64,000 bases of DNA from Raillietiella orientalis (Eukaryota), in contig JAYWIR010000040.1 of NCBI GenBank assembly GCA_036172245.1, forward strand, positions 1,860,001 through 1,924,000. The letters are read 5' to 3'. The translations under genes were made by a program, and so were the position numbers. The notes beneath the pieces were generated by a model. It was given only the letters and a program-made list of their open reading frames with translations, had not been told where the DNA came from and ran no database searches. Below are positions 3,431-56,019 of the stretch, one piece after another; position 1 is the first letter of the stretch; the number at the start of each line of letters is the position of its first letter.

Positions 3431-3736
3431 CTAAAAAACAGCTCAATAAAAATACTAAATTGGGGGTCTTTCATGGAATAAAACTTTTATAAATCATTCA
3501 GATTCCTTATAATAGCGTATTTTGAAAGTTATCAATTTACACAACACAAATCTTCATTACTCAAAATTCATAAGGCTATTTAGATTTCAGTGTAAGAGGA
3601 TGGTAACACTGAATGCTAACGTGTTCTGTACTTTGGAGTGAGGAATGGAGCATCACTTAAATGGGAGCTCAAAAAACATTCGAATATGGATAACTAGTCA
3701 TTTTGTTGTCCCTTGAGAACTCCTAATCGTGTTGTT

Positions 3737-4714
3737 ATGGGTAAAAGTATTTTTTCATGTGAAACGCCTTTACGACATATTATCAAGTAACAAAATTTTT
3801 TTGTATAATTTTTGTTCTGGCTATTTTTGAACTGTAATAAAAGTAACTGGCACCAACCGCTTTTCATGCAAAAATCAGTATTACTACCTATAATTGATAT
3901 GTTATTTAATATGAAGGAGGCCTGCTGAGCTATCTGAAGAATTTATTTGGAAGTAAGGAGTTGAGGATTTTAATATTAGGATTGGATGGAGCAGGCAAAA
4001 CCACTATTTTGTATAGGTAATTAACTGCTATTTTGAGTCATATCTACAATTGAAGTGTTTGAATTGATCTAATTAAAAAAGATTGAAATACATTGTCATG
4101 AGTGTTCATTTTGACAGCTAAATTGTCATGTATGATTACACAACTGTGAATTGGCTTATTAAGTCATTTGAATGTTTCAGAATGCAAGTTGGAGAAATTG
4201 TAACTACAATTCCAACTATAGGCTTTAATGTTGAGCAAGTTTTGTATAAAAACCTGAAACTTCAGGTTTGGGATCTAGGTGGTCAGACTAGCATACGGTG
4301 ATAATTTACCCTATTTACTCTTTCATTATATTCGTTATTTAGACCTTATTGGAGATGTTATTATTCAAATACTGATGCCATTATTTATGTCGTTGATTCA
4401 GCAGATCGTGAACGTATCAGCGTTTCCAAACAAGAATTAGTATCTATGCTCGAGGTAACTTTTTAAAAGGTTTCAATCTTTTGGTTTTGTAATTTGATTT
4501 CAAGGAAGAAGAACTGAAATCAGCTGTTCTGGTTGTTCTTGCAAATAAACAAGATTTAGAGGGAGCAATGACAGTAGCTGAAGTTCATCAATTTCTTGGT
4601 CTGGATGCACTTAGAGGTCGTACATTCCAAATTTTCAAAGCTTCAGCTTTAAAAGGAGAAGGATTAGATGCTGCATTAGAGTGGTTGTCCATATCTTTGC
4701 AATCGCGAAAATGA
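3737..4714 (+). CDS. ARL1: ADP-ribosylation factor-like protein 1, 180 aa, 5 coding exons: 3737-3740, 3917-4016, 4181-4297, 4343-4454, 4505-4714
   Basis: Spliced translation [55 protein letters not shown]...[31 protein letters not shown]...LANKQDL...[10 protein letters not shown]. Shows the myristoylation Gly2, P-loop [18 protein letters not shown] and the ARL1-typical [12 protein letters not shown]. All introns are GT-AG (176, 164, 45, 50 nt); exons sum to 543 nt. Confidence 0.97.
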
Positions 4715-9192: not shown

Positions 9193-9329
9193 AAGAATAA
9201 GAGTAACTGAAAATGAAAGAATACCAAGGTGGATGAAGTTTCTGAAATTTCCTTGAAGTCCATGTGACACCTTGGACGGTCTCCTTCGCAAGAAGTGGGT
9301 TTTGGTACTTGCATACAAATCACAAGTGT

Positions 9330-12300
9330 TCCTAAGGCTTATTCTTCAAAAGCATATTCAGCAGGTCAACATCGGATTTTTGACTTGCCTCTTTTGTTTG
9401 TTCTCTTATCTGACTCTCGAAGGCCAGTGTTATTTCTGAGATGTTTTCTATGCTTCGTCTAGAGAACAGATACCATAATTTGCAAAATCATACCCCTAGA
9501 CTTTTGATACCATTTTCCTGGACGATCAGCTGGGGTTATTTTCCGAGAACTCCTATCTGTGCATATCTTTGTTGTTTCAAGTGCCTTGAATTTTGCAAGC
9601 ATCAGCCACTACTGAAAACTGAAAAGGAGGAGCTTCCTAATGCTTCTTCCTGCGCTTTCTTCATGACTTCTGTTTCTACGATAGGTGGGTTACTGGGAAT
9701 AGACTGGATACGCCTGTTAGAAAATACAAGAAGCTTTTCTTGCTGATACTCAGAACTTGGTCCTCATGGGATTCGTGAAATCACTTGAGAGAGCATGTCC
9801 TTAATATCTTCAGATGATTGTCGGAGATCGAGTTGGAAGGAGCATGAGATCAGAGACTCTTTTTTGCCTTTGACGATATCGGTCGCGATCCACGTCGATT
9901 AGTCGATCCTGCCAGCACGAAGGATCTTGGTATTTCCTTGGCCAGCATGCTCTCCTTTTTTCCGACACAATCTGTTTTTTTTGCGAACGTGCTTTTCTGC
10001 ATTGGATCCACAGATTTTTCCTTTCACCTTTCATTTCTCTCTTGACATAGTGATATTCATTCATACTGATGTTACGCAGAGCTTCTGATGCTTGACAAGT
10101 GAGCGTTGTGATTCTTACAGCGTCTCATCGCGACTCTTGCTTTTCATGTTTTCAAATCGAAATACTGTGATTAGATCATTTGAAATGCTTTCTCTGTTAT
10201 ATCTCTGGAGTTATTAATTGAGTTTCCAGAAGATACGAACATTCCTGGATGGTTTCTGAAAAGTCTAAACTTCTGATCCCTTCGATGGTTCTCAGGGATG
10301 AAGTTCGGTGGCTCCTCGTAAGGACGCTCTGGTTTCGTTTTTGACCGTGTATCATGCTCTTCATCAGGGAGTAAACCGAATGTCAGCTTTCGCGAAAGTT
10401 TAGCTCAACAAATTTCAAGCCGAACCCTTGTTATCTTCATCATCAACTCCATGTCAGCGTAGGAGCTGTTCCAAAGTTTGCTCGTTGTTTCAATCCGAAC
10501 AGCAACTTCTCCAGACAGTTAGTTGCCTTACCCGAGTAGACGGCGTTATTCGTTAGCATTAGAGAAGAGGTATTAGAGGTTCCTACACACCCCATTGCTT
10601 CCTGAAAGAAGGGCAGAATACAGCGTTTGAGAGCACTTCACTTTTCTGATATTTACGTATTGAATGACAATCGAATGTTGCATTTCACCTTCTCTTGAGA
10701 TGCTTAGTGTGTATTTTGAAATGTTTGATTGATTTGAACAGTATTCTTTTCCTCCTTTCAGTTTGGACATCTTTCATTCCAAAAACCATTTTCACATTCC
10801 TGTAGTTCAGTCATTTTTTCCGGTTTTCCCCATTGCTGTACAGCTTGCAAGTTCATGTTTAACTTGTTGAAAACTGAGCTCTCAGGAATAACAGCAACCT
10901 CCGAAAGTCAATCATCGTGAGATGGACTTTTGAATTATTACAGATTTTCGAATGTAAATTCTAAATTAAACCGATATGGTTTGTAGTTTGTCCGTAAAAC
11001 AAGTGTTTCGTGCAGACTTTTGAAATTTTTGGCTCATTCTATGTATCGCAAAGAATTTCGAATGGAGGGTAATTAATTATTGGTCTGATCAGAATGACTT
11101 CATATTGCTGAGTTTTTTCAGGACTCATCATTTTTCGACACTTAAACTTTGGTTGAAAACACATCATAACAACCTAATTCTGCAGTTGATTGGTATCAGA
11201 TACTCAGCAGAAATCTTTGTACAAGATGATCTGTGCAGTCTCTGTCACTAATCACAATTCAGAATCCGGGTTGATAGTCGATTTGACCAAGTGTCCATCA
11301 ACTTTTCCCAAACATTCAGAATTTGTGAATTGTGGATCCAAACGTCATTGTGTTTAGCCATTATGGCGATATGATGGACCAAAGTACACAATGGACGTCA
11401 GATGTTTAATAAACAACAGATTATTGGTTGTTTTGGTGCCTGGCGAAGAAATACAGAGAATGTTTTTCGAGAATTTTCTTAGAATGTTTATAGTGCACAG
11501 AACAAAGATTCATTAAGAAACCAGTTAAAAAGCAGGAAAGATTCAAAGAAAAATAGACATCAACACAAGCAAAGCTGCCAAGGGGCGAGCTGGAGAGGGA
11601 GCAATGCACCTTCAAAAAGTAAGCAAATGAAGGGATATGTGTTGAAGATAGTTACTATTTGTTGACTACAAAGGATGGCTATATGCACACTATAAGATCA
11701 ATGTAAAGTATGCAAAAGATAATTAAGACAAGATCCCCACCGTGAAGTAAGTTGTGCTTCATGTGATCATGGAAACATTGCTTTCGGGTAGAATTCTTCT
11801 GCAGTGGATCACTAATAAGATTAAGGACTTCTAAATCACTATGTTTTCCTAGTTGAGAAGAAAGTGCTTCATTCCATTGATGTTTGAATATCATGGGCCA
11901 ACTGGAGCAATTTATTCCGGTTCAGCTGCTGATTTTTATTCTGAAAGTAATCAAAGTGGAACAGAAACAATCTCCAAACTGGAATAGAAGTGGTTTCCAA
12001 AGTTTGAATAGTTCGAGAGGTACTTCATGTCTATTAAAAGTTCCATTTTTCTGGAGGAACCCCATTGATGGAAAGACAGGATTGCTTGCTTTCGTGATGG
12101 GGTAGGAAACATGAGCCAGAATGCGGGGTCATTTAGTAAAAGAGGAAAACAATACATATGGACCCAACCTTGAGATTGCTGTTTCCGCTGCGAATTCCAT
12201 TCGAAGATGGAATGGTCATCCTCTGTTTTCTGTCTTTATGTTTCCTTAAAAAAAAAAAATGTATTGCTTAACAACAACACACTTTAACTATTGAAAACAG

Positions 12301-13130
12301 AAGACAAACAGAAGACTCAGTAATGTATCTCAAGAACACAAGATGCAATACACTTTTAGTACGATTGGCAAGGCTTCGGACGCGTTTTAGCACGACCTCT
12401 TGAAAGTTATCAAGAAACTCGGATGTAATATGCTTCCTAATGCTAATGGACTGCCAGACATTGTATTTATGATAGGTTAAATCTGAGCCTTCGAGTAGGT
12501 TAGATGAATGGGTTCCAGGAATAAGAAGAAATTAGTTAGTAGGTTTTCTTTCGACATAGGAACACTTCTATAGGAGTTCTGTTTCTTCAGAATATATTTG
12601 TGTTAAGATTATCATTCTCTTCTCTCTGATGAAGGATGTTTGTGATTTCGCAAATTGATTTTATTTTGAAGTACTTCCGTAATTTAAGAGTGAAATTCAA
12701 ACCATTCTTAATTTCAAACACGATGCAAGAGAATTTCCATAATTCCAGAAAAACTTATGAAGGGAATATATAAGAGATAAGTAAAGTACTGATATGTTTA
12801 CTGTTACATTCTCCAAAAAGTGAAATGTTCGACGCTGAGGAACTTTATTCTTTTACTTGTTCAAAAATCTTTAGCAGGAGAGCTTTTTTTCAGAGAAATA
12901 TCTTCAATATGTAATACCTCTTGGTTTTATGTGAGCCATTTTTAGAGATCGACAGCTTATGTTCTCTGAAGATCAAATAAAAGTGTTCCTTGTGTGTTCT
13001 CCGGGCTGGAAATAAGATGCTTTTTATGAGGATGTGACACGAAGCTTCTCAAAGACTCAGTAATCTATCTCGGGAATGCAAGATGCAATGTGCTTTTAGT
13101 ACGATTGCGTCTGTTTGTGCTTGGACATAT
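9330..13130 (-). CDS. One or more probable multi-exon genes or decaying genes, product unknown; structure unresolved
   Basis: Several protein-like open stretches flanked by splice signals, e.g. RSIENISEITLAFESQIREQTKEASQKSDVDLLNMLLKNKP* (about 9333-9458) and RIQSIPSNPPIVETEVMKKAQEEALG (about 9640-9712), interrupted by stops that I could not all explain with introns. Confidence 0.25.
12312..13107. repeat. 56-bp imperfect direct repeat: 12312-12367 and 13052-13107
   Basis: aagactcagtaatgtatctcaagaacacaagatgcaatacacttttagtacgattg vs aagactcagtaatctatctcgggaatgcaagatgcaatgtgcttttagtacgattg; 48/56 identical, ungapped. Confidence 0.9.
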
Positions 13131-16083
13131 TTTGAACACATGTTTCTAATTTTTAACGAATTTTTTGTAAATTTGAAGTCATAATACTACTTCAAATGAC
13201 ACTTTTCTCTAAAATTTACTAGACCCTTGCTTCAAGTAATACGAGGAGGGTCTTGGTGCCCCCACAGAGTTGCTTTGTTATCAGTCTCATCTCCAGAAGA
13301 AAAGAGTTTGCCATCAGTCTGAAACATGAGTTTCAAGAGTCTTCGTAACGGGAGAGAGAATATGTAATCAATTTATTCTTAAAAAGCTAGAATATGGAGT
13401 TGTCACTTTTCCTGTTAATCTATAGTCTTTTCCTCCAAGAACTCTTCGCACTTGAAATTTGCTGTTTTTTTTTTATGTGTTCCAGTGTTTCAGCAGATTG
13501 CTAGTGAATACCTTTGGCTTCCTCGTTCTCTTGTTTTGAAGCATTAGTCTAGATAAAATTGCAGTAATTGGAGTTTACTAAATATTTCAATGTCACACTT
13601 TGAAGAAAAAACAGCAATAGAAGTTTCAGTAAAAGATGTGATGCAGCAGTTTTAGATGGTCGACTCCACAGTTAATAGGTGACGTGAAAGTGCTATGTTA
13701 TGCTATGTTTACTGGTACTTCAATATTTGACGATTTAAATATTGAAAGCACTTAATGATATACAATAATCTGAGGTCAAAGAAAGTTCGGCATCCTTTAT
13801 TCTCTGATTAAGAACTTATTTAATGAAACTGAATTTCAAAGTATTTAAGGATCATACATTATATTCACGTATTACATAAACCCGTACGTACATATATGTG
13901 TTTGTGTGTGTATATGTATTAGGTTTTCTCTAATGTCACTCTTTCTACTAGACTATTACTAAACTATTGTAATCTGTCACTACATTAGGAAAATTATCAA
14001 ACAGTCACGTCTTTTCTCTCCTAGGAATTTCATGCCATTTAGTACAAAGTAACAAAATATTTGCATCGTGTAACGTGATAGGGCAAGTATTTCATTTAGG
14101 AAACCATTGTGAAAACATTTCACCGTTATCTGACGCTTTGTCTTTTTCAAAAATGTCGGGTGCTCAGGCACTAGACAAAAACTTTGCACATTTGATTGAA
14201 CAATTATGAGTAAAATACACAAAATACGGATGATTAGGAAAAAATATATAAGGAATGTATGCTTTAACAGGGTTTTGGAAGTTCCAAAACGATGAGTAAG
14301 TTATAATAACGAGTCAAGGAAACATGCACAAGTAATGTCTTGTGCATCTTATATTGATTTTCGTACAGAAACCACGGTAGTCTGGCTCCGAATCACTGTT
14401 AAAGGCAGTCACTTAGCAGCCTGTGATTCCTACAAAACATCTCAAGCTGATTTTGCTGTGAACAGTACATTTCCTTAAATCCTGTAAAGCCAATCCTGTG
14501 GTGATGTGTTTGAGTGTTGCATCCCGAGTTTTGAAAGATATGAATTTAGAAAAATTCTCAAGCGCAGTATTGGCATATTTGCATATGACAAGAGACATAG
14601 AACACAGTGTCTAATTCCATTAGAACTATATTTTCCATAAATTTAATAACAGCCTACTTATAGAAGCCAAAAAATTCTCATAATGTAACCAACAATTTTA
14701 ACAGTTATGAAGGTATATAGAAGTCCAGAATGCTAATGTATAAGGAAAACAAACAAACAAGCACCCTTGTGCTACCTAATACTCGTTCTACTATAGATTG
14801 AATATTAATGTTGGTGTTCTGTGAACAGTATTATACCCAAAGTCTGTATGCAAATTTTCCCAGTTAGCGAATATCAATGTTTGAATGACATGGAAAAAAG
14901 AGTTCATACAAAAACATTCTTCAAATGGATTGCAATTCGGTGTTATTCAGAATTCCTCTCAATTTGAATATCGAGCTTTTTTTAACACATAAGCTTGGGT
15001 ACAAATCCAGGTACCGACATCTGGTGTATGCTGCTTTTTACGAAGAATGTCATCTGAACGGACTTTTTATTCTTTGGTTTCTATTCAGGATCATTGTACC
15101 ACCTTTCCAGTCTGAAAAGTTGAAAATTCAGCTCTCAATTCTCTTCGATATAGGTACATGTAATAAGGCTAATCGTTTCATTCAACCATCTAGAATATCG
15201 AGACTTCCATATCAAAGTTTGGATTGTTTTGTTTTTTTTCTCCATATCTCAAATCAAAATCATCGACGAAATGGTATTGCAAGCCTGAATCTGTGTTGTG
15301 AAAAACCTTTCCTGCGAAACTGGTAACATGTGCTTGTGTATGGATATTGGTACAGTGTGAACGACAGTACGCTCCAAATCTGTTTCTGGATTAACGAGTT
15401 TGCTGTTTATTTTTTCCTCGACAATAGCCGTAAGGGTTTTGGCACATAATTTTTGCCTCTGACTGTCAATACTGAAATTAAGAAAAAACAAAATCTTCTT
15501 GGATGCTTTTATGTTATATGCATATTTGTATGGGTGAATGAGCCCTGATCCGATAACGTTCCCATTTTATACTCCGCTTTGGTGATTGGTAGAGTAAATT
15601 AGAAGTCAAAATGTTTTCACTCGCTGTTCACGTAGCTCATGTGAATGTTGAATGGTATCATGTTATTCAAATGTGAAGCAGTACAATGCAACTATTTGCC
15701 ACAAGTGACGTTTCTTTCAGTGCTCCATGCTCCAGTTGGTAAAAAAACTGAATCTAAGAAGAGGATTCCAGATGTGCAAATTATGGTATTATAATAGCTG
15801 TGAAGTATTTATTAAAAGTCTTAAGTAGGTTGCCAAGTTCGGCAGCATATGGAGCATCTGCTGTGCTGTTCTTTGTTCATGTGACAAGTCTGGAAAACTT
15901 AATTTTTCAAAATGTGCCTAAAATTAGGCGATCGTAAGTGTTTCCTATGTATGGTTTTCATGCTTTTGGTTTTCCCCTTTTCAGATCATCATCGTAAGAT
16001 GTACATTAAAAAATCAGTCTAGAAATACATTATATTGTTACATATTTTGGAATTCTAAATTATTTTCTTGCAATTTGTTAAAT

Positions 16084-16242
16084 TCAATCTTTGATCAAGT
16101 TCTGGATTTCGGTTTTTGCATTTCTTAATAATCTATACGTTTGGAATTCTTTGCCACCAATACAAAGTATATAAATACTAAATGCTGCTAGGCCAATGCC
16201 AGAAATCTTAAGGACTTTTTTCAGTTCCACTTTGGGTTTCAT
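16084..16242 (-). CDS. 52-aa single-TM microprotein, tentatively SMIM11/FAM165-like; overlaps the PIGBOS1-like ORF by 35 nt
   Basis: MKPKVELKKVLKISGIGLAAFSIYILCIGGKEFQTYRLLRNAKTEIQNLIKD*: basic N-terminus, one hydrophobic helix, charged helical tail. KVL..LAA..ILC..G.K.FQ..RL resembles SMIM11 as recalled. Confidence 0.55.
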   Translation of the reverse strand: MKPKVELKKVLKISGIGLAAFSIYILCIGGKEFQTYRLLRNAKTEIQNLIKD

Positions 16243-16369
16243 TTGGAAAATCCAGGGTGTATTTTGTTGAATAGAATTCTCTCAGTAAAGGTATTGTGAT
16301 ATAGTATCCAGTAATGACTCCAGCGATGACAGCAATGTACAAATCAGTTTTTCTCAATCTGTGAAACAT
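16208..16369 (-). CDS. 53-aa single-TM microprotein, PIGBOS1-like
   Basis: MFHRLRKTDLYIAVIAGVITGYYITIPLLREFYSTKYTLDFPNETQSGTEKSP*. Length and pattern match human PIGBOS1 as recalled (MFRRL..Q.L.A.V.G..GG.YI..P). A strong tttcag acceptor lies at 16415-16420. Below the 60-aa ORF-track cutoff. Confidence 0.7.
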   Translation of the reverse strand: MFHRLRKTDLYIAVIAGVITGYYITIPLLREFYSTKYTLDFPNETQSGTEKSP

Positions 16370-19300
16370 CAGCTACTGCAGCAAGTGGACTAAAATAAGG
16401 CATCTAGTCGCTAACTGAAAGGAAAATTAATGAAAACTTTCAGGTGGTTTCATTTCATTTAATACAAGACTTTTTTGTCTTACTTTTTGCACAGATACAT
16501 GCCTATGCAAATAATTCATTTCCTTGAGGATATTTGTTGCCCACATTTAACAAATGGTGAAAAAACAACTATTCTATCAGAACCAAAGGAAAACAGTACA
16601 AAGTACACACTTGAAACAATAGGGCATCAATTGCAAACTATGCACAAGAGGATACCATTTGCAATTTCTTGCCTGACTCGAACTGTAATCAATTAAAAGA
16701 CTGATATGTCAAATGTGACGACAATCATGTAATCCTACGTCGCTTACACAACTGTAAAAAATTTTTTTAAAATTCTCACAGCTTACTCTTCAATGGACTT
16801 CGCTAAGGAGATCTATTGTCGAATGTACAATAATCCCACCAGAAAAATCTCAGCCGATTCCAGTCACGAAAAAAACCTCATCAGACATAAGGAACGATTG
16901 CTAAACGGGTAGCCGAAACGAACATTTTTGCAAAGGCACGTTTTCCTGGCAAGAAGTTTCATGAATCGTTTAGCAAGCAGTGCTACCAATTCTTCATGAA
17001 TTTATAAATAAAGTAATAATGACACAAATATGATGATAATTTTAAATCAAAGAAGCAGTTGACAAATGAACTGAGACAGCTCAGGAAAATTGATGCATTG
17101 TTATCATTAATTAAGACGCAAAAATGAATTGCATCTGAAGATTCCTCGCATACTTTGAATTAGGTTTCAGCGCATGGAATTAACGTGGAAATTCGGTACA
17201 ACCGCTGGTACACAAGAAAGTGTTAGAATTACGTGGTCTCTTGTTACATGCAGTGATGCACTTAATAGATGGGGGTAAATCAAGGAAATTTGATTTGAAA
17301 GACGATTAATTGGGAATTCACATTTTAAAAAGTAAATTTTCCGTATAGTTATCTGGAAAATTTTGATTGTAGAGAATTTCTCCAAATGTAACTGTAATAA
17401 ATAATTATTGTATTGTATTACGAGCATGCTTTCAGCACTTGAATCATTTAGTCGATTTTGGATTTCAAGCTCTGAGTTACTTTTTTCTGCTAATAAATGA
17501 TGAAGTCTCAGTACTAACTTCCACGAAGTTCAAATTTAATCCGTGATGATTAAAAAAAAATTTGTTCCATAGTTCTAGTCATTGTGACTTAGAGCATTAC
17601 ATCCACAAAAAGTGAAAATTTTGTAGAAGCAATCAACCTACGTATGTTACACATGCTATATTAGGTTGTTACCTCCAAGTTAGTTTTCTAACCTGTTCGC
17701 TAGAGATTGTTGGGAGGCGGATGCTTTTAAGATAAGCCATGACAAATTTCCGGATTTATTTATCATATTTTTTAGATTCTAAAAGGTTCCTGTGAAAATA
17801 ATTCTCTCAAAGAAGCGGAAAACGATTTAAATCAATAAATAGTTTATCTCTGGAATGATGATTTCTATATCCGAAATGGAAGAACTAAAGAGGAATAGCA
17901 GTGCAGTTGAGATGGAAGCATGAACAGCGACAACACTTAATTTTGCGGACGAATATTGTTTTCGGTAAAAGTGTTGCGAGGTGTGCACTCTTGTGCACTG
18001 CTGTCATGCTCCTGTGTTGGGAGACTGCATGCACTGTGTAGTGCAGCGTTTCCCAAACTATGTTCCGCGAAAAGTCGATAAGTGTTCCGTGAAAAATTAT
18101 GGACATTAATATATTTTAAATGCTGCGCCCAGTTGAAATATGTTTGAAACTCAGGCACCCCTCACTTTGTATATCAGCTTTTTACTATTGTGCCTGATAT
18201 CAAAAGAATCTGTGATTCAAAGACCTCAAAACATCGAAGTCATTACACACGTAATTTGACTATATATACGCTAGTTTATTTTACTATTTTCATGTGTTTT
18301 GCTTTGCATAATTCAAATTTGAGAATAAACGTCTGTTTTGTTTTCTGAACTCTTGTATTTACTTGCTTAATTAATTTATTATTAATGTCAACCTACCCTA
18401 TAAAATAACCAAGGTATTTCGTTAGCATTTCAGGATTCGTGAAGTGTTCCGTCATGGGAAAAGTTTTAAGAGAAGCTGGTGTAGTGTATACATTGAATGG
18501 AGTATTGAATTTGGCTCTAGTAATCAGCTGTTTGGCTGGAAACGCAGAGCGGCTGTGGAAGAGAGAATTTTCCAAGTGGCCCACAAGTTAAGAACGTGCC
18601 ACCACGAGGTTCTTTGGCATTCTGGAGGCTTCAATCCCTCAAGTCAAGGATCATCTACTATTCTCAACCACTCTCGGAATGATCCAGCCCCGCACCCTCC
18701 CGCAACTCCTTGGACTCAGGACTGGAGGCGTATCCCATTTCCAAATAGGCAAACCAGTAGTCTTGTGTGCAAAGATAATTTACTTTATCTTTTTATGTGT
18801 AGTTGCACATGCCAGTTCATCGTATGTACCGTCTGCGTCTCTCGCGTGCTTCCCATCTTGCGGGCATCATCAGTGAGGTCCCATTGCAAGTAGATTCCTC
18901 GATGAATCAGTGAATGACTGCAACTCATGAGCAAGCGGTGATGGATGTTAGGTATTATGATCTCTCTCAGCAACGTTGGCAGCTTTTTCTTCACGTGCCT
19001 CCCGTTTCCTGTAAAATGTTCTCATCAGCTTAATTTCTGCGGGGACCTGAGTAAAATCCGAGCGGGCCTGGTGGCTCTCGTCTCGGTTACCACTGTGAAC
19101 CCTTACCTCAGCTCACCTCCTTAGGTTGGTTTAAAGTGCTCGCCTTGGTTGTGCTTATGACCCACAATCAGCCAGCGAACAGATAAAGAAGTTTCGAGTG
19201 CCTTCTTCATTCAGTCTTAGCCCTTTGTATCCTAAGTCGCGTCGTTAGGGATCGTAGCGCGTGTAAGACTATGGAGGGTCAGCCTCAATGATGGACTCTG

Positions 19301-20257
19301 GGCATAGTCCTCAGGCACAGCTCTGCTTGGCAAAATTTCGATCCTGAAAAGTTTTTCGAAGAACTTCTTCCGTGTCTTCCCCATCACATTCATTTAATCT
19401 TTCCATGTGCAAATAAAGTTATACTTTTCAGGACGATGTCCCTCCTATCCATCCAGAACAACGAGAGGCGGAAGTGGAAGGGAAGGAAGTATTCCTTGCC
19501 ATTCTTTGATCCTGACAGTATGGCTAATTTTGGGACTGCACAGGCCCCACGATATCGCCTGCTTCTGCTCACCCTATTTCCTGGCCGCTGTCCGACTCGC
19601 CTTTGCTTCACTACAGACATGCCGGTGGAAGGAAAGACTCCGTTGCCAGCAGACTACCTGATCTCCCAGTTTCCTGTTTCGCCTTTGCACACGACTGCTA
19701 CTCTCCGATGAAATGTGCTGCCTCAAGGGATCCACGTGGACGAAGAGAGTCTCGCTGCACCAGGATTCTGCACCTAAAGGTGCATTCTACTCCAAGGACT
19801 GGTGACGGCATCCTACGCATAGGTGCGGTGCAGGGGAATGAAAAATAGCCAGAAGTTTACGTGGTGACCACACAAAAGTTCCTGACACGGAGAGAGGTCG
19901 CGACCTTCATCAGCTAGTGGTGAAAATGGACCGCAAAACACAAGTGGCGGCTCGTCAAGTAGGTCTACAGAAGGGCGAGATGTCCTACTGAGCAAGCGGA
20001 GTGCGTATTTCCCCACCGCCGCCAACGCAAGCTGAAGCAAAAGGGTGGTGAGGTTTGAACCCGCACCCACGATTTCCGCGTCGCGTGCACGACCCAAACC
20101 ACCACCGTCAATGTGTACTTGCAACTAGCGTGCGCGCCCCCTTATATGGCTCGCGCAACGCTCTTTCCGCACTGCGAACGGGGCGCGTGAGTCTTTCGAC
20201 CAAAGGAACAACAAGGTGACTCATTCATCGCCTCCGGCCGGAACCCCATCGGGGAGA

Positions 20258-20980
20258 GTTCTGCCAGGTCGAACCGCAACGAAAAGAACGGCGGCCAACC
20301 GCCTCACATGCAAAAATCCGTTCCGCTACCTGCAGTCCATGTGCTGTCGAATAGGAAGCAGACATGCCGAGCTCATCTGCAGAAGTAGGGAGAGGAGCAT
20401 TTTCATGGGAGGATTCGATGGAGCAGGCAAAACTACCATTTCGCATAGGTTTTGAGTCATATCTACAATCGAAGTGTGCGAATTGACACGACTGGAAGAC
20501 TTTCACTGGCACGTGTGTTCACGTTGACAGCTGACCTGTCACGTGGGATTGCACAACTGTGAATTGGCTCGTCAATGCTTCCGGATGCAATTTGCATGAA
20601 TTGTAGCTGCCGTTCCGACTACACGCTTAAATGTTGAGCAAGTTTTTGAAAAAACGGAATTCGAAGAATGGGGAACATGAAGAGATCACGTATTGATGGA
20701 TCGATGCTGAGGTAGAATATTGAAGGAGATAGAAACATTCAGCTGGAGCGGAAAGTGCTTTTTTTTTTTTCGGGGTTACACAAGGGAAGGAGGGAGGTAG
20801 TCATGGAAATCTTCAAATTCATGCAGGAAAGCAAAGGACTGAAATTCGGATGATGTTGCAAAGGACTGAAATTTTTTTTGCCCCCTTTTTCTGCATGTGC
20901 TCACGTACATTCGAATCCCACCAGGGAAGAATTCGACCCCCAGAAATGGGTGCTTCGTGGGTTTCGAGTCTCCCCCTCAG
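20258..20980 (+). pseudogene. Unprocessed, internally deleted ARL1 pseudogene (DNA-level duplicate of about 3814-4258 plus 4869-5360)
   Basis: Aligns by eye to intron 1, exon 2 ([14 protein letters not shown]), intron 2 and part of exon 3 (..aatgttgagcaagtttt). It then jumps to ARL1 3' flank sequence (atgctgaggtagaatatt..aacattcagctggagc). Splice sites and reading frame are destroyed. Confidence 0.92.
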
Positions 20981-23319
20981 GATGACTCTGGTTTGCTTAT
21001 TAGGTTGCGGCACGGTTTACAGCCGGAACTTTGATGACTGGCTCGGTTCGGAACTTGGCCCTCCGGGTTCTTTCCAGGAACCAAGGAACTGGTCCCCATC
21101 GGAATTCCACTCTGGTTGTGAAAATGGAGCCTTGCCCCTGCTCGAGGGGAGCCTTTATATTGTGCAATGGAGTTGGCTCTCGACCTTCTTCGGTGGTTTG
21201 TTTCCAGAGTGTAAGAAGAGCGCTGCTTCCTTTAGGAAGCCTTTTTCAGAGGAACGTGGAGGCGTCCTTTCGGTTCTCTCTACGGTGGAGTAACAAGGAG
21301 CGCATCTTTTCCGTGGGGCTCCTTCGGATAAAAAAAAATCATCCTCTCGAGGTTCGCTTCGGAGAAGAAACGAGGAGCTGTTCCCCTTTGGGGGTCACAC
21401 AGGCAGACCTTATTTCATACGTCAGCACTTTGGTGGGAATGTCCAGGCAAAGGAGCGTGGCTGGGGAGCAAACGGAACCTTCTCGGGTCAGGCGAACGCC
21501 GAGTGACATCAACCATCCGCGATACGTGGGAGCTGCCGCAGTGCTGAGAAGGGGAGAAAGGGGGATCTGCGTCGAGGATGTAATCCTCACTGCGGGAAGT
21601 TGCTTGGCGCGTGTGGACTGCAGCATTCGTCCCCGTCCGTTTTCCTGCTAGGGCGCCTTCTGATCTCCGGCGTTATGGAGCCTTCTTCTCGTGGCGCCAT
21701 CTCGTAACAGGGAATGGTAGCTACTCAGGCATTTGGCTTTTTTCCGCAGGGAGCCTCGAAAACGGGAAACACATGCTGAAAGTCGACGCGTTGCTGCTGC
21801 GTGTTTGTTCTGCAAAGGTCCCTTCCGTTGCTGGGAAGGAATTGAGACGGCTAAAAGTCCCTATAACAGGAGACAACGAATTCAACCAAAAAAAAAAAAG
21901 TCTCGAATTTGCACGCTGGTTGCTGGTATGTTGCAAAGTCAAAATCGCCTAACCTTAATCTTTTGTTTAATGGAAGGAAGATGAGACAGGTGAAACATTA
22001 TGCGGAGTCAGTTGCATGGCATCCGAGTTTCCACGCATGAAGAAATTTCACGCGATGGTTCATTCAAGTGGACGAGACGCTCGCGGTGGGAAGCCTCGTT
22101 TTCGGGGTGCGCCGTGTTTCTGAGAAGGGAGCTCAAGGACTTGCCATGCGTGGGTCGGCACTAGGGAGCGGAGGAAGTGGAGGAAGGTGTCGAATCACGC
22201 CGTACTTCCTAAGGATGCTTCTGGATCCAAGGTTTGGTATGGACAGCCAGACTTTCCAGGTAGTGGCTGGTGACTGATCAGCATGCCCCCGCGGAAGTCA
22301 CAACCAAATTCGAACGGGTTGCAACCTCCGCGGAAACGATCCGTCCGATTTGTCCTCAGAAGGCTTTGGTTGGCCCAACTGTTCAACCAAAGCAACAGAT
22401 GTTCTTGGAACAGATGATTGCAACATATGTTCTTGCACATGGAAGAATCACACCTGACTCAGAGCTTCCGGCTTCGGAGCAGAGCCTGACCCTGCATTCA
22501 GAATTCCTCAGAGCTGCTTCTCGAGACGTGTCAGTACTGCTTCTGCATGCGAAAAGATCAATGCTCCTGACGTAACTTAACGAATTCCATCGACAGATCA
22601 ACTATTCTTCCGTGGAGGAGGATGCGAACCGAATTTCCGATCTTCGTGAGTGCCACAGCAGCATCGCCGAAAAGACAAAAAACCCAGGTCCAAGGTCACC
22701 AGGGAAGAGGATAAGGATTAGTTCCAAGTTCCTTTGTGCAGTCCTGAGACGCTCACTTGACAACAGAGTCCGAGAACACTTGGGAAGTCAGGAAGCATCG
22801 TCCGACCGGCGTTGCTAAGAAACGAGCATGGCAGTCCTCTAACGTTAGGGAAGAGGGTGCTCTCGTCGAGTCGAGGAGAACTGTTGGCTAACCAGGCTGC
22901 ATTCATGGGGTGATTTCTTCGGGGTCACTGTTCAACTTGAAGATTTACACGCACCCTCGGATGACGTGAACGGTGTGAAAGAGTGATCCGCCTCTACTCT
23001 AGAAGCAGGTTACTTCTCTCTACATACAAAGCAGCCCCATCACCGCTAGTCACGCCTGCGTCGGAGGCCACGTGGTTGCTGTCTCCATGCATGGCATCAG
23101 GCGTCGCGGGTTCGAATCCCCTCGGTAAGGATCGACGCCAAGAGTTTGTGCACGTCGTGGGTTAGAGTTCCTCCTGCAAGATGATGCTGGTTGCCCTGCA
23201 TTCGGGTGCGGCGCCGATAGGGGTTCAAACCGGGAAGCTTCCGATGAGTGGCCGGGACTGGGAATCGACCTCCGGGCCCTTTCAGGAATCAAGGAATGGG
23301 AGTTTCTCCCATCAAAGGA

Positions 23320-23700
23320 GCGGAACCCCTTCGGGGGGACCCGCTGTGGAGTAGGTGTGTCGCCACCTCTCAGAGTTCAGAGAAGAGTGCCGCACCCTTC
23401 GGGGAGCGCCCTTCTGAGAAGATTCGGGAGTTCGAGGTTCCCTTCAGAGGAGTAAACAGGAGCCGTTCCCTTGCGGGTGGTCCCCCTGGAGAAGAAATTC
23501 CTACTTGCGGACCCATTCCCGGGGTCCCTCCGGAGAGAGTAAGGAAGGATTCTCTTTGGAGGATTCTGAAGGATTCTTCAGGGTTCTCTTTGGAGGCAGC
23601 CAGGGTGGAAGTGTTCCCTTCGGGGATCGTCCTCCAGGTGTGAGAGGAACGGACTCTGAGCCCTTCATGGATATCATAGGGACGTCCTCTCCCGGAGTAC
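23320..23700 (-). repeat. Degenerate minisatellite-like array (core about TTCTCCGAAGGGAAC on the minus strand), related to 56020-56260
   Basis: Recurring plus-strand cccttcgggg / gttcccttc..gagaag units at roughly 40-bp spacing; the reverse complement resembles the 56-kb array. Confidence 0.5.
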
Positions 23701-24749
23701 CACCTATCTTGAAGAATTCCAAGCACCCTCGGGTGGCGTGGAACAATGTCGAAGAGCTGCGTAGGCTGCCAGGCGCGCGGCGGTTCTTGAGGTGCTCAGC
23801 AAACCAAAAAATAAAAGCTGAAAGGAAATAACAGGGAAGACAGAAACGAACCCCAAAAGTACTCCCATAATCCTAGGGTGCCTGCAAAGTCTCTGCAGAT
23901 CCGAGGATGGGGAAACATCCCCGTCGAAAGGGCCACCTGATTTCCATCCCTACGGACGACCATCTTTTCCCTCTGCAGCCCAGCGTGGAAGCGCACCAAA
24001 CCCCCCCTTCCTCCGTCGTTGCAAGAAACGGGGCAAGTATAGAGGAATTCTCTGTGGCACTCCTGGAAAAAGAGAGACATGAGGTCAAAGAGGGCGTGTG
24101 CTGCGGAATGGGACGTTTTTGAGGAGCTCAGGGTGAGGAGCTCCGGTGGGGATGAAAGAGAGGAGGGGAAGAGAGACAGGGGAAGAAGGCAGTTCCAAGC
24201 CGGCCCTGACTGCCAAACGGAAGTGGTCAACAGCGCTCTCCAAGGCCACTTCCGTTCTTGAGGGAGCCGGAGTTAAAGTTGCATGTGGAGTCCCCAGCAG
24301 TCAAGACAAGGACCAGAGAACAAGATGGAAAGGGAAAGAGGATGAGGATGGAAGGGATCGGACTGGGAGAGGCGGCAGCAAGAAAAAAGGGAGCGACATG
24401 ATAAAAGGAGCGTTCTCTCGACGTGATGCTGCCGGTATCGCCCTAGGCTCTTCGCTGCTGCGAGTCGCGATAGTGGCCCAGCAATCCAGAAAGGAAATCA
24501 ACTCGCAGAGCAAGGGCGAGAGCACAGGAAGAGATCGAGTGGGCGGATGGTGTCGCTCGCCGGATGGTCACAACAGCGAGGGTAAGGCTCAAAAGTTGGA
24601 ACCGGCCGCTACTGGAGAGGCGTCTAGCAAGGAATGAGGGAAGGTTATCAAATGATGCAAAACAGTGTACACCACAATACAATCACTGAAAAATGGTCCA
24701 GGGGACGTGAGGGGAGGAGGAGGGAAAACAGTAAAGAGCTGGTGTGGTA

Positions 24750-25300
24750 ATAGGATGGACTGTAAGTTCAGTTTCGGGACTTCCGAAAATACGCATCGAG
24801 GGTAGGGGTAGAGTGGGCCAGCGGCGGAAGATGGACTTAGTCTCCCTTCTCCGGTGCTCCTGGGCTTCAAGAAGTCGAGCCTCGCTTTGCTGTCTCCTCC
24901 ATCGAGAAGATGGCGGGTATTGCCCTTCTCTGCGGTGGACGCTACCACAATCTCTGCTTTCACGTTCGTGCTCCATCTTCCGCTCCCTGCTTTTTGTTTG
25001 TCCTCTGCCGAGACGTATGACCAAGCAGACTAGGATCTCCTAAGTATCGTCCTGTGGGGCACAGGGAGGTCTCGAGTACGCCCGAAGGGCTTGTGCGCTC
25101 CGCGTCGTGACGCAGGCCTTAGTCTCCTGACTCTGGAGAGCCTGGAGCTTCAGCTCCAGTGGAGGACGCTTGCCCCAGTGGCGAAGCTTTGGATCTTGAA
25201 CTGGTGCGAGCCCACGCGACACCTGGTCAAGCAAGCCACCGGCTACGCGGGACTGTCTTCGTTCCTGGCGCGGCAGCGCAGATGCAACGTGCCCAGCTAA
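24750..25300 (+). mobile_element. Possible non-LTR retrotransposon C-terminal remnant (R1/LOA/I-like)
   Basis: RHLVKQATGYAGLSSFLAR resembles the LTQLLTGHG..xxYLxR motif that precedes the LINE C-terminal zinc knuckle; very degenerate. Confidence 0.3.
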
Positions 25301-25559
25301 GGATTGGAGCTTCGGTGAATGGCCAAGCTGACCAACAACTGGGTCTTCTGACGGCCCGTGAGCGGCAGTACCTGGTTGCAGGAAATCATTCGCACATGGG
25401 CCGAGAACAACGAAGCAAGCCTGGAGATGCGGCAGCGACTGCTGCACTCCTTCTACAACAACGCTCGCTGCAGGACATCATCGTTCAGCCTACCACGTGT
25501 GTGGAGGGGCAAAGAACCTCCCTAACCGCGGTACTTCCCTCCCTCAGGGATCACCTGGA

Positions 25560-27380
25560 CAGTAGACAACAGGACAAATGGAAGGTGAGTTGCGAAATCA
25601 GTCAGAAGAACAGGGCCACCCGAAAGGGACGGCAGTTTTGCAGCCTTTTGCAGGGCGCAGGAGGTCTCAAGGTTTTCCTCGTATTGGAGGGCTGTTTGAA
25701 TGACGTCCTCCCTCCAATACGGGCGGGCGGGGTGTGGCTGCCGCCGGTCCTTAGAAGGAGCCTCCCTCTGCACCACTCCTCTGCGATCTCGTTGGTTGCC
25801 ATTTGGTCTCCTTGGAAGGTCAGTGTCGGCCCTCCGAAAGGAATCGTGAAAATGATCCAGAAGATCCGGAGGAAACGGCTGCTCTTCCTGAGATAGTGCG
25901 GAACACGTTCGTGGCCGCTCTCCTCCGCCCCTGCATTTTGTTTGCTCCTACTGCAAGTGATGGAGAACTGCGAACCGAGGACCTCCTGACGAAGACCCTT
26001 TGGAGCACATATCGGTCCCGTGTTTGCTTAAAAGACTTATGTGCTCTGTTCTGGGACGGAGGACTTGGCTTTCGGACACTGGAACGCATGAGTGTCAGCT
26101 CGAATTCTGAAGATTGGCCCTGAGGGCCGAGTATCGAGGGACACGCCAGTGCATTCCTTCACACCTCCTCGCCAAGGAGCAGCCGGCTTGGAGATCCTTA
26201 CGTCTTCCTTCCTCTCTCGCCATCGGAGCCTGCCCCGAGCTTCGGCAAATGACAGCCTTGGCGCCGGACCACGCCTGGATCTCCTGCTTGTCCACGAACT
26301 GCGGCTTCCTGGAAATGGGAAGCAATTCAGACGTGGGCGCAAATCAACGGCAAAGCCCGGAGCAACCGCCTGCGATACTCCAATTATGCGTGGAGCTCGC
26401 TGCAGATCATCGAAAGCCCCAGGAAGAACACGTGGGCGGACGGAACCCCATTTGCAGCAGCACGGCCCTTTCTTCGGGGCATCAGCAACGGTGACTAATC
26501 GGTACGTTGGCAAGGAGGTGCCCTGCAAAGTCGCAGTAAGGGGAAAAAAATTGTTGGGATGCTGGACGGCGGATCAAATGGCTGGCTCACCCACCCCCGA
26601 AGTCCACCTCAAAGGAATTCTCCTCTAGACACGCGCATCTCTTCCAAATTTTTTTTAGAGGGAGTCGAGATCCTCGCAGGGTTTTTTTTTGACGGCTTTG
26701 CGCTTAACTGGCAGTGTCAGGACTCGGAGATGCGACTGTCGCACTTGGCCGTCCCGAGCAACGCATGCCTTCACCACTGGACCCGGGGGAGTACGGCCCC
26801 GGACTGTGCCCGGTGCGGTGAAATGAAAACCTTCCCGCATATGCTAAAACTGAGTGTGCTGCTGCCCCCCGGAGCGCACGGGAACGTTTTGCTATGGCCC
26901 TGCAATTCCCGAGGGACAACCAGAAAGTCGTGTTGGGACGCGTGGCTTCAAGCGTGGGGCAACGTCGCTCAGGAGACGCTGGCAACTTTGTGCTGCCTCT
27001 GGCGGAGCCGTGGCGGAGAGATGCTACATCAAAAGAGGCCACACGAACAGGGACACTGTCCCCATCGTCGTCTACTTCCTGAGGATCACAACGAGATACA
27101 CAAGAAAAAGCTTGCCTGCATCCTGGACAGGATGCCAAGGGCTCCAGAGAGGTCATCGCAATCCTTTCCCTCACCCCCAAACTTTTAAAAACAATTTTCT
27201 TTGTTTATTTTTCCTTTTGTTTACTCGTCACCCTTTATTTTTCCTGTGAGGACTTCCGTCGGCAAGCTGGTCGCGAACAGCAATCGCATCCGGGAATCTT
27301 GCCGACGTAGCGGGTAATGCACCCCGAGTTGACCAGCTTATTTGCAAAGATGCATTTTTGTTTCTTTTTTTTCCAATAAA
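25560..27380 (+). mobile_element. Degenerate L1/Tx1-like LINE, 3' part of ORF2 plus 3' UTR
   Basis: Collinear decayed motifs across frames: RATRKGRQFCSLL..FLVLEG (RGVRQGCPLSPLLF.LVLEP), IVRNTFVAALL, RVSRDT..PPRQGAAGL (RV.R..L.LP...GGLGL), and RLSHLAVPSNACLHHW..PDCARCGEMKTFPHML (zinc knuckle). Followed by a T-rich tract and AATAAA at about 27375. Confidence 0.65.
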
Positions 27381-27559
27381 CGTTCTGGAGTGACCGGGAG
27401 AAGGCCATCTGTTAGATGGGAATTCGCAATGCTCTGGTCAGCCTAGTGCCAGGTCTCCCCTGCGCAAAGAGAGACTGCTGCTTCTCCTTCTGGACTTCTC
27501 CATGTCTCTACATCCTCTTCTACCCCTCTCCTTCTTCCCACGATCGGTCTCCCACTCCG

Positions 27560-29100
27560 GAGAACAGAAGGACGGGAGGCAGCGGTCCTCCTGTGTCACA
27601 CGCGCTCCTTTTGTGGGCCGCGACACGCCTCCAGGCAACATCCGAAGGCCAACTCGGGGTGCATTAGGGCATGCGGACAGGGGGAGTCTCCCAGGGTTCG
27701 CCAGCAAAAGACTCATACGCCGGACATCCACACTGCTCTTCAGACGCCCGGCGCAAGCGCAACTCGGCTCAGAGCCCGCAGGAATGGTGGGAGACCCGCA
27801 TGGGAAGCCCAGCATGGCAGTCAGTGTCGCCTGAGGTCCTCCCATCCCCTCTCGTCGATGGACGCCGTCTGTTCTCTCACCACAGCAGATCCTAGCTACG
27901 TGGTGGGTGATTCCCACATCCTCGAAGGTGAGGGTGGAACCTCAGGCTTCCCTCGGGGGCTGAAAATCAAGCGCAAGCACATGTGCTTAGAACACTCGTG
28001 ATGAGGGTTACGGGAAGACGTGTGATTGGGGTTTGTTTCCTGTGAAATGATGCGATGAAAGTGCTCAGCCTTCGTGCACGGCGACGCTGGTGCACGTGGA
28101 TGGGAATCTGGAATTGGGCACTCCTGCTACATCCTGAGCGCTGACCTTAGGCAGAGAATCCTCAAGACGACCCCCCCTTCTTGGGTTTCCTATTTGCATC
28201 CGGTTCGTTGTACGTTGGATTTCGGCAACGGGGGGCCTTTCTGAACCTAGCCCACCGACTCCCCACGCGCTTCTGCTTCCCTGTCGAAGGAGAGTTCTTG
28301 GCGGTCGCACGATGGCGCGCCGGAAGGCGGTTCCGTCTCGCAGTGGCGCGCATCGGTGATCGGTCTCTCCAGAGAATGCGTGCCACGAACTCTGGAACAG
28401 GCACACTCCAGCCCGCCGGCGCGGATCCTGCTTCCGAGTAGGGTGCCCTGCCACGGGAGGCCCTTGCTGTGGAAAAGCCTTCGTCACGGGAAACGCCTAC
28501 AGCATCTCCGCGGTTTCCTGCACTCCGGTGGCGTGGCGCTCGAACACGCGCGTTCGTTCTGTCATCGCCTTCGAGGTTTCCGCCCAGACCGCGAGACGCC
28601 ACTGCTGTTGGTCCTGCACGATTCGATCAGAGGCACAGGGTCCTTCGGAGCGAGAGCCTGCCTGAGGACCTCCTCTTCTCTTGTGGGTACCCGGAGCTAC
28701 TTGCCCTCGCGTCAAAGGGGTCGCGGTGCACTCCTTGGCCCCTCGCCTGCCGGGTGAATGCCATCCCTGTCCTGCATGGCGATCCGAAAGCAGATTGCGC
28801 AGCACGAGGTCACCAACGGCGCAGGTCTTCGACGTTTCCTGAGCTTCGACGGCCTCGCGCAAGAGGGGTTCCTTGTTCCGCCTCCGACTTCGGGACACCG
28901 CGCAGGGAAGGTCACCGGACAAGCACCTCCGTTGCTTTCCGCAACCTAGTCATTGCGGATCGCGAGATTGCTAGAAGGCAAGCCTGGAAGGCAAGCCGTT
29001 TCCATGCTTGCCCTCGCATCATGTACAAAGCGCGCACGGGAGTTTTGTACGCGGGAGCTACTGAGTAGTGCAAACGAAGGAGGGACCGCTTTAAGCGTGC
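27560..29100 (+). mobile_element. Degenerate Ty3/gypsy RNase H-integrase remnant
   Basis: In order: GFASKRL (AYASK.L), LVDGRRLFSHH (YL.GR.F...TDH), VPRTLEQAHSSP (integrase Zn region), AIPVLHGDPKAD (G.P..LHSDQG), TSGHRAG (T.YHPQ); heavily frameshifted. Confidence 0.45.
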
Positions 29101-30375
29101 CTCCTCTCCAGGCATGCTGCCATCGAAATGCGTTGCTGCAGGGGAGCTCCAATGGCCCAGGACTCCTTTGCACTTTGACACCGCGCGCCCCCACGGATGC
29201 ACCTTTGTAAGGTGCTGGTCCAGGAAGGATGAATTTTCGTGCTACTGTCGTCCTTAAGAAGTCTGCCCAGTCCTTGAGAAGACAAGAAGTGTCAAATTTT
29301 CCCCATCACTCTTCGTTCCCGGACGTGATGTGGTTCTATTTGGTTTCCCTTTTCCCTGTTGCCGGAGTTGTCGGGAGATTCGATAGGCGCCGTGACTGCC
29401 CTTCGCCGCCTCCTTTCCTCGACTTTCCTGCCTTTCCGTTTCTTTCGCTACGCCGACTATGTTCCCTTCTGTTCTCAGTGGGAACCTCCATCCGTAGTCT
29501 AAAGAACAGGAAAAAAAGTTTTTGCTGAGGATACAGGAGGAAAAGAGCGTGCGGATGCATCTTCAAGCAAAGCGCGTGAGCTTCCGAACCCCGCCGTGAT
29601 CCGCCGTGGAGATTTGGCTTGCGCAGGAGCCACTGATGGCTGATTGCCTTTCGTGAAGGGAGCGAGGCTGTTTCCTGGACATCCCACCCCCCTCGTGTGC
29701 AAGCAAGTGCGCTGTCCAGCGACGGGAGTCTACTGGCTGGGCGCGCCCTTCCACCTGCCCCCTCCTCATCGTGTGGGGACGGTGGTGGTCTTCTCCGCTG
29801 GAGCATTCTGTGTGGTAGCCGGTGCTGAAGGTCGCGAGAGATGGCGCGCTTCATAGGCGCCAGCAAGGTTGTTGGCCACGAAATGATCGATCGATCCGTG
29901 CGCTTAGCAACGACTAGACCGCGAGCAACGCCGAAGTTTTTGGTCTTTCCTCCATAATTGCGAGCCGGGCTGCAGATCGGGGACGGAAAAGAGCATTCCA
30001 TAGGCACTCTGTAGGGGCGAGGGCTTCTTCCTTAGAGATCTGGGTCGCAGGATCCGGCGGGACGCAACTCTGGTTTCCATGGAGACGCACGATGCTTACC
30101 GCGAGCCCGCTCCGGTGCGTTTTCGCTGAAGACTCGCCGAACGAAGACGGGGTCCTTCTGCGCGCCCTTCGCCGGAAGTTCTGGTGCTCCCCCTTCTCCT
30201 CCTTCGTGGTCATGAAGGAAAAATGGAACGCGCCCGCTCCGCTCGATGAAGCTGGCGCCCCGCGCCCGAGTGCCAGTCGGCACCGCGAGGAGCGCCTTCC
30301 TTTTATTGTGTCCGTCTCAGACCGTGCTCAGGGGCGCTGCCGCGGACGGAAGGCCGGGCCAGGGGCGGAGACTCG

Positions 30376-56000: not shown

Positions 56001-56019
56001 AGGCAACCCCGTTCACTGG

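What the first reader, a model, noticed from the sequence alone, without database searches (positions are those of the whole stretch)
20258..20980. ARL1 pseudogene records strongly directional AT->GC substitution in the GC-rich compartment
Seen: parent intron gagtgttcattttgacagctaaattgtcatgtatgattacacaactgtgaattggcttattaa vs copy gtgtgttcacgttgacagctgacctgtcacgtgggattgcacaactgtgaattggctcgtcaa; 12 of 13 differences are A/T in the parent and G/C in the copy. Conserved ARL1 residues polarise the direction: ACT->GCT, ACA->GCC, ATT->GTT and ATA->ACA in VTTIPTIG must have occurred in the copy. Known: neutral decay in most animals is biased toward AT. Inference: 16 kb from its parent, neutral DNA is being driven toward GC, pointing to very strong GC-biased gene conversion or a region-specific mutational or repair process.
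Basis: partly seen in the sequence, partly recalled or inferred. Interest (0 to 1): 0.72.

Follow-up and report, generated by a model that had tools for sequence, protein, structure and literature searches.

The report
Dead ARL1 copy drifting toward GC
A broken copy of the housekeeping gene ARL1 in an arthropod genome has swapped about a quarter of its A and T bases for G and C while the working gene barely changed, a clear case of a known kind of GC-favouring drift whose cause could not be settled from one genome.

Summary
Confirmed: window 20258-20898 is an unprocessed, truncated ARL1 pseudogene of the intact gene at 3737-4714. Over 623 aligned columns, 104 differences are parent A/T to copy G/C and 16 the reverse (p=1e-5 after allowing for the parent's 69% AT). 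Amino-acid changes at conserved residues run 12:2, so the copy changed. CpG rose from 2 to 30 and TpA fell from 63 to 16. Parent introns show at most 2 of the reverse class, so they moved at least 4-6 times less.

The compartment reading is only partly supported. Fifty-two copies of an AT-rich MITE also drift GC-ward (GC* 0.60), differently at each locus, but the direction does not follow flanking GC. Two GC-rich SINE-like families decay toward AT (GC* 0.38, 0.42) even in GC-rich flanks.

Best reading: locus-variable GC-biased gene conversion acting on released AT-rich DNA, with CpG-depleted gene bodies shielded, as in honeybee (0.5). A context-dependent mutation or repair bias is the main rival. 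There are no polymorphism data. The scan already noted this drift on another pseudogene of this genome (e1-7512982). New member of a known kind.

The parts
3737..4714 (+). Intact parent ARL1 gene: coding exons 3737-3740, 3917-4016, 4181-4297, 4343-4454, 4505-4714; 180 aa
   Evidence: open 543-nt CDS; exon 5 68-78% identical to listed ARL1 homologs, named hits mostly arthropod; single full-length match in G000
3814..4251 (+). Parent segment 1 that was copied (end of intron 1, exon 2, intron 2, first 71 nt of exon 3)
4868..5095 (+). Parent segment 2 that was copied (downstream of the stop; probably 3' UTR, inferred)
20258..20654 (+). Pseudogene part 1: no exon 1, +1 insertion near 20374, 11- and 13-base deletions, premature TGA at 20597-20599; 71 W>S versus 8 S>W
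20649..20898 (+). Pseudogene part 2, joined across a roughly 616-base deletion (rest of exon 3 to past exon 5) at an A-run; 33 W>S versus 8 S>W
20011..22101 (+). Segment carrying the pseudogene, recently duplicated to G000:C49:1227797-1229887 (99.3%) and in part to G000:C24:563727-564270 (97.6%)
20910..21390 (+). Old GC-rich SINE-like repeat copy directly after the pseudogene (control family OLD)
18043..18480 (.). AT-rich MITE with terminal inverted repeats at the AT/GC border (control family; the hAT-like label is recalled, not tested)
1..18500 (.). AT-rich block, GC 0.31-0.42 per kb, CpG o/e 0.68 overall and 0.14 in the copied ARL1 segments
19000..64000 (.). GC-rich block, GC 0.556, TpA o/e 0.43, CpG o/e 0.85

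Best explanation
A DNA-level partial duplicate of ARL1 left its AT-rich, CpG-depleted (probably germline-methylated) gene body, lost function and came to lie in non-genic DNA (duplication and loss shown; methylation inferred). There, strong but locally variable GC-biased gene conversion raised fixation of A/T>G/C and lowered fixation of G/C>A/T, on top of an AT-biased, neighbour-dependent mutation process (inferred). The parent was shielded by low recombination or a low substitution rate in the gene body, plus intron constraint (slow parent shown; cause inferred). Much of the visible skew is relaxation of a 31%-GC sequence toward a 40-60% genome background. This locus sits at the upper end of that range. 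Implied B is about 1.8-3.6, depending on the assumed mutation bias.
For: Both W>S transitions (0.172 per W site) and W>S transversions (0.070) exceed W>W (0.037), while C>T (0.041) is below C>G (0.073). C>T is 5.6 times C>G among de novo mutations in Daphnia obtusa (PMC12458238, passage). So S>W looks suppressed as well as W>S boosted, the two-sided mark of a fixation bias. Among 52 MITE copies on a star-like tree, W>S counts are overdispersed 3.7-fold (p=1e-17) while GC-conservative counts are not (1.2, p=0.15). The WS:SW ratio is heterogeneous (p=0.0003), and W>S and S>W rates are negatively related within subfamilies (rho -0.41 and -0.28, neither significant). 10 of 52 copies reach GC* of 0.745 or more. 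All classes rise with flank GC in the MITE, as in the gerbil high-GC region (PMC7403616). CpG o/e below 0.5 occurs in 20 of 49 bins with GC<0.40 and in 0 of 175 others, echoing honeybee, where methylated genes have low crossover and B averages 5.7 (PMC4406589). A SPO11-like locus, two DNA-methylase loci and seven MutS-domain loci are present, including MSH2-, MSH3- and MSH6-like exons.
Against: No polymorphism or recombination data. In the MITE, S>W does not fall as flank GC rises (slope +0.25+/-0.14 per 0.1 GC). A same-age model with all rates raised (lnL 2639.8) beats a gBGC gradient (at most 2622.0), and with copy-specific ages no model beats the null. GC-rich SINE-like copies decay AT-ward (GC* 0.38, 22 copies; 0.42, 30 copies), and trinucleotide standardisation does not close the gap to the MITE. 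One locus-level B should act on both kinds, and this is unexplained. TpA-creating C>T is lower and TpA-destroying A>G about twice as high in all four data sets, which simple gBGC does not predict. Parent introns show no excess of GC-conservative change (10 of 236 versus 8 of 160 in exons), which points to a rate difference rather than a fixation bias alone. Honeybee gBGC is confined to transitions; here A>C is raised too.
Confidence: 0.5

Rival explanations
1. Mutation or repair bias. Non-genic DNA has a high, neighbour-dependent mutation process (A>G at TpA favoured, TpA creation disfavoured) with an equilibrium near 45-60% GC. Methylated, transcribed gene bodies are repaired better and stay slow and AT-rich. 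The compartments differ in clock speed more than in direction.
For: All MITE classes scale with flank GC. The parent's introns are nearly frozen: P(2 or fewer)=0.003 if their W>S rate were a quarter of the copy's. TpA effects occur in every family. Simulated equilibria reproduce the signs of the GC block's dinucleotide biases (pooled GC 0.48, TpA 0.57, GpA 1.28 versus observed 0.556, 0.43, 1.30). A Wolbachia-like nuclear insert gives u=v=0.17 at non-degenerate sites (one distant outgroup, so confounded).
Against: Simulating the parent under any family's context rates gives a W>S share of 0.60-0.78 against 0.867 observed (best case P about 0.003), although exons alone (20:6) fit the MITE rates. 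MITE W>S varies among loci without matching overdispersion of conservative changes. A twofold rate difference looks too small to hold blocks at 33% and 56% GC (my estimate). MSH2/3/6-like exons are present, so there is no plain loss of mismatch repair.
Confidence: 0.33
2. The ancestor was GC-richer and the parent lost GC (methyl-CpG decay in the gene body), so the apparent direction is reversed.
For: Introns show more W>S (51 of 164) than exons (20 of 103), p=0.046, and 20 of those 51 sit in a CpG in the copy. Part of the intron excess may be on the parent's branch.
Against: Amino-acid-changing differences at residues conserved across 79 homologs must be on the copy's branch and run 12:2. The rate at non-degenerate sites (9 of 39, 0.23) matches the overall rate (0.24). 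Only 8 of the 51 intron differences are TpG/CpA versus CpG.
Confidence: 0.07
3. The changes came from RNA editing or error-prone copying while the fragment was carried by a mobile element.
For: The segment has been re-copied into composite blocks on two other contigs.
Against: Introns are retained. A>G (39) and T>C (35) are balanced and 30 W>S transversions occur. The carrier segments have only three copies, and those copies are 98-99% identical, so they postdate the roughly 25% divergence.
Confidence: 0.03

Closest known systems
Honeybee gBGC with methylated low-recombination genes (Wallberg et al. 2015, PMC4406589; passages and section 10 part 1 read)
   Same: Arthropod genome with strong GC heterogeneity; CpG depletion confined to AT-rich parts; W>S excess led by transitions; neighbour effects; implied B in the range reported for honeybee
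   Different: Honeybee gBGC was shown from frequency spectra, is confined to transitions and gives CpG o/e of about 1.65. Here A>C is raised too, CpG o/e is 0.85, the standout context is TpA, and no polymorphism was available.
Mouse Fxy moved into the pseudoautosomal region (as described in PMC2631073, passages read)
   Same: A sequence moved to a new genomic setting gains many W>S substitutions, including at conserved residues
   Different: Fxy is a working gene in a region of known extreme recombination, with 28 of 28 replacements W>S. This is a dead copy, 104:16, with unknown recombination, in a genome where GC-rich DNA is the majority of the stretches sampled.
Runaway GC regions of gerbils (Pracana et al. 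2020, PMC7403616; abstract and first part of Discussion read)
   Same: All substitution classes are higher in GC-rich surroundings, W>S the most
   Different: Megabase clusters in a mammal, versus 10-100 kb blocks here, where GC-rich repeats decay toward AT.

Membership tests
Unprocessed (duplicated) pseudogene | Homology to an intact parent with introns retained | tested here: met
   intron 1 end, exon 2, intron 2 and part of exon 3 align; parent intact
Unprocessed (duplicated) pseudogene | Disabling lesions, no sign of coding constraint | tested here: met
   no start exon, frameshifting indels, TGA at 20597, large deletion; 20 amino-acid-changing differences at conserved residues
gBGC-driven sequence | Excess W>S over S>W on the lineage, beyond base composition | tested here: met
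   104:16, p=1e-5 against the composition null; 12:2 polarised
gBGC-driven sequence | S>W reduced as W>S rises, GC-conservative changes unaffected | tested here: inconclusive
   Met in the ARL1 copy (C>T below C>G) and in MITE overdispersion; not met along flank GC, where all classes rise
gBGC-driven sequence | W>S variants at higher frequency than S>W variants | not testable with these tools
   only one low-depth contig run was listed
gBGC-driven sequence | Link to recombination rate | not testable with these tools
   no map; only a SPO11-like locus found
Compartment-specific (isochore-like) substitution direction | Neutral GC* of the same element rises with flank GC | tested here: not met
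   MITE rho 0.07, SINE -0.25, OLD 0.13, none significant; few copies lie in deeply CpG-depleted flanks, so gene bodies are not sampled
Gene-body methylation of the parent block | CpG depletion plus DNA methyltransferase genes; direct 5mC | tested here: inconclusive
   CpG o/e 0.14 and two DNA-methylase loci, not typed; no methylation data

The most novel reading that the evidence does not exclude
This arthropod has a mean-reverting neutral process not explained by one gBGC coefficient or by trinucleotide mutation rates. AT-rich inserts (pseudogene, MITE) are driven toward 60-75% GC, GC-rich retroposons in similar surroundings decay toward 40%, TpA is avoided in both directions, and CpG-depleted gene bodies are almost frozen. 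That would mean conversion bias or repair is set by the sequence or chromatin of each element (for example breaks placed in AT-rich unmethylated DNA and excluded from silenced repeats and methylated genes). The AT-rich blocks would then be slow refuges rather than AT-ward domains.
Probability: 0.2. Interest if true: 0.75.

Novelty: new member of a known kind. Interest (0 to 1): 0.45.

Why it matters
A parent and its dead copy 16 kb apart give an internally polarised measure of neutral substitution in a lineage with no close sequenced relative. They show that leaving a gene body can raise A/T>G/C change at least 4-6 fold. That is known in kind from honeybee, Fxy and gerbils. The added value is the set of controls: repeat families in the same genome disagree in direction, which sets a precise test for whether conversion or mutation builds GC compartments in arthropods.

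Tried and rejected
Outgroup by reads: one DNA run was listed and no RNA holder. Its contigs were sparse, with no listed difference in the ARL1 parent or copy, so it gave no outgroup or SNPs.

More parent-pseudogene pairs: a search with 5200-18000 found only small repeats (4 matches).

Recent direction from the three pseudogene copies: too few changes (22 variable sites in 2091 bases; C40-private 3 W>S, 1 S>S among three-way sites). Segment 29455-29880 differs 15 S>W versus 5 W>S toward the AT-flanked C49 copy (p=0.04), but 29198-29368 differs 10:3 the other way toward C24. I treat both as noise.

Temporal shift (old GC-ward, recent AT-ward): rejected because the older GC-rich family also gives GC* 0.42. 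Young SINE branches give 0.37 versus 0.38.

Polarisation artefact of majority rule: quartet counts give 0.56, 0.38 and 0.40, and pairwise sharing is low. Strand-specific editing: only small asymmetries. Methylation of SINE copies: CpG>T 0.056 versus other C>T 0.049.

A first 30-copy MITE run suggested that only W>S tracks flank GC (rho 0.62); with 52 copies all classes did.

A structured RNA holding the parent introns: no Rfam match in introns 1-2 at E up to 1. Tandem duplicate at 12312/13052: too short.

The metagenome scan gave one locus about 70% identical, too distant for clean polarity. A fourth repeat family was listed but not fetched.

Literature searches listed no paper describing a polarised W>S pseudogene decay in an arthropod. 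The library lacks most subscription papers, and no supplements were read.

Full report
What is there. The window has an AT-rich block (1-18.5 kb, GC about 0.35) and a GC-rich block (19-64 kb, GC 0.556). An intact five-exon ARL1 gene lies at 3737-4714 and encodes 180 aa. Its last exon is 68-78% identical to the listed homologs, whose named members are mostly arthropods; none is close, so the lineage is an unidentified arthropod by inference. At 20258-20898 lies an intron-containing partial copy: parent 3814-4251 and 4868-5095, joined across a roughly 616-base deletion, with no start exon, several indels and a TGA at 20597. The 2.1-kb segment holding the copy was recently re-copied to C49 (99.3%) and in part to C24 (97.6%).

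The skew. Over 623 columns there are 150 mismatches: 104 W>S, 16 S>W, 16 W>W and 14 S>S. By class they are A>G 74, A>C 30 and A>T 16 on 430 W sites, and C>T 8, C>A 8 and C>G 14 on 193 S sites. With equal per-site rates 69% of W/S differences would already be W>S; the excess over that has p=1e-5, and GC* is 0.745 (0.65-0.84). CpG went from 2 to 30 and TpA from 63 to 16. W sites in TpA changed at 39 of 112 versus 65 of 318 elsewhere, p=0.003.

Direction. I aligned 79 homologs of 170-215 aa, out of 121 proteins held. At residues conserved in at least 90%, amino-acid-changing differences are 12 W>S, 2 S>W, 4 S>S and 2 W>W. At non-degenerate sites they are 9 of 39 versus 2 of 31 (p=0.013, 0.029 and 0.096 by three tests). 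The polarised rate (0.23) equals the overall rate (0.24), so most change is on the copy's branch. In introns only 2 of 72 S sites are W in the copy, which caps parent W>S events. If the parent's introns had changed at a quarter of the copy's rate, P(2 or fewer) would be 0.003; at one sixth, 0.04. Conservative differences are no higher in introns (10 of 236) than in exons (8 of 160). So the parent's introns barely moved. Against this, introns have more W>S than exons (p=0.046), so some intron differences may be S>W on the parent's branch.

An AT-rich MITE (copy at 18043-18480) gave 54 copies from two searches that each scored only the best 40 candidates. I used 52, dropping two recent relatives of one copy. 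The tree is star-like. Against column majorities W>S is 0.103, S>W 0.069 and conservative 0.015, so GC* is 0.60 (0.56-0.65), and 0.54, 0.56, 0.65, 0.59 by rising flank GC. All classes rise with flank GC, partly confounded by two subfamilies; an all-rates model fits best, and with copy-specific ages nothing beats the null. W>S is strongly overdispersed among copies (3.7), conservative changes are not (1.2), and 10 of 52 copies reach the pseudogene's GC*.

The TE control, GC-rich families. A 780-base SINE-like family (label inferred from a CAT-repeat tail and flanking duplications) gave 32 aligned copies, 30 of them from the top hits among 3360 candidates. The 22 star-like copies give GC* 0.38 (0.34-0.42), flat over flanks of 0.38-0.57, and the 10 clade members' young branches give 0.37. 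An older GC-rich family, 30 of 35 copies kept, gives 0.42. Standardising for trinucleotides leaves 0.57-0.60, 0.38-0.42 and 0.42-0.50; quartet polarisation agrees. A Wolbachia-like insert against one 70%-identical relative gives 0.50 at non-degenerate sites, which is weak. In all four main sets C>T that makes TpA is lower (about half in three, two-thirds in the oldest family) and A>G that destroys TpA is about 1.7-2 times higher. Simulating the parent under MITE rates gives a W>S share of 0.78 (0.72-0.84), under pooled rates 0.69 and under SINE rates 0.60, against 0.867 observed.

Reading. The pseudogene is therefore an upper-range example of how AT-rich neutral DNA behaves in this genome. It is not proof that everything in the GC-rich block is pushed to GC. 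The real contrast is between the slow, CpG-depleted gene body and non-genic DNA: CpG o/e under 0.5 occurs in 20 of 49 AT-rich 2-kb bins and in 0 of 175 others.

Mechanism. I favour locus-variable gBGC (0.5). Both W>S classes are up, and C>T is below C>G where de novo C>T is 5.6 times C>G in Daphnia (PMC12458238, passages). W>S alone is strongly overdispersed among copies of one family. The layout matches honeybee, where methylated genes recombine less and B averages 5.7 (PMC4406589, passages and one section). Recombination, methylase and mismatch-repair genes are present (two further MutS loci match MSH2/3/6 weakly and may be MSH4/5, inferred). Implied B for the copy is 1.8 with a Daphnia-like mutation bias and 3.6 with a honeybee-like one (my calculation). 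A context-dependent mutation or repair process with slow gene bodies is the main rival (0.33). It explains the TpA effects, the all-class rise and the frozen parent, but it under-predicts the skew. Neither explains why GC-rich retroposons decay AT-ward in similar flanks.

Comparison with what is known. It works like Fxy after translocation (PMC2631073, passages), gerbil high-GC regions (PMC7403616, abstract and part of the Discussion) and honeybee; PMC10978632 (passages) treats gBGC as widespread in insects. Membership in gBGC proper needs frequency spectra and recombination data that I could not get. Eight literature searches listed no arthropod pseudogene case; supplements were not read. Earlier notes of this scan report the same drift on a thioredoxin-reductase pseudogene and many sharp GC borders in this genome; these are unchecked AI notes, and they pointed me to the honeybee and gerbil papers and to the Wolbachia inserts.

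Verdict: real, correctly polarised, a new member of a known kind; interest 0.45.

Noticed in passing
window 30376-30513 (-), relative near 61643-61767: Open exon for a cysteine-rich peptide matching Pfam Toxin_9 (E 7e-7); resembles the arthropod agatoxin-like neuropeptide (recalled). A 69%-identical relative lies near 61.7 kb.
   Followed up: partly
G000:C49:1227279-1230318 (L008): A 3-kb GC-rich island in AT-richer DNA, stitched from window 20011-22101, 29455-29880, a 29295-29368-like piece and about 520 bases shared only with C24. The parts differ in identity (99%, 95%, 86% for the C24 piece), suggesting stepwise capture; three copies only.
   Followed up: partly
window 18043-18480: The MITE sits at the AT-to-GC border; two copies on C19 about 200 kb apart are 98.9% identical over the element only.
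   Followed up: partly
L161 485-3225: Wolbachia-like frr-uppS-cdsA nuclear insert split by a high-copy 1-kb repeat.
   Followed up: partly
L055 3144-5156 (end of contig C40): Tandem array with a period of about 277 bases, 90-93% identical, running to the contig end.
   Followed up: no
window 19000-64000 and sampled genome stretches: TpA o/e falls from 0.69 in AT-rich bins to 0.44 in GC-rich bins (rho -0.80 over 224 bins), with ApC/GpT also low (0.75).
   Followed up: partly
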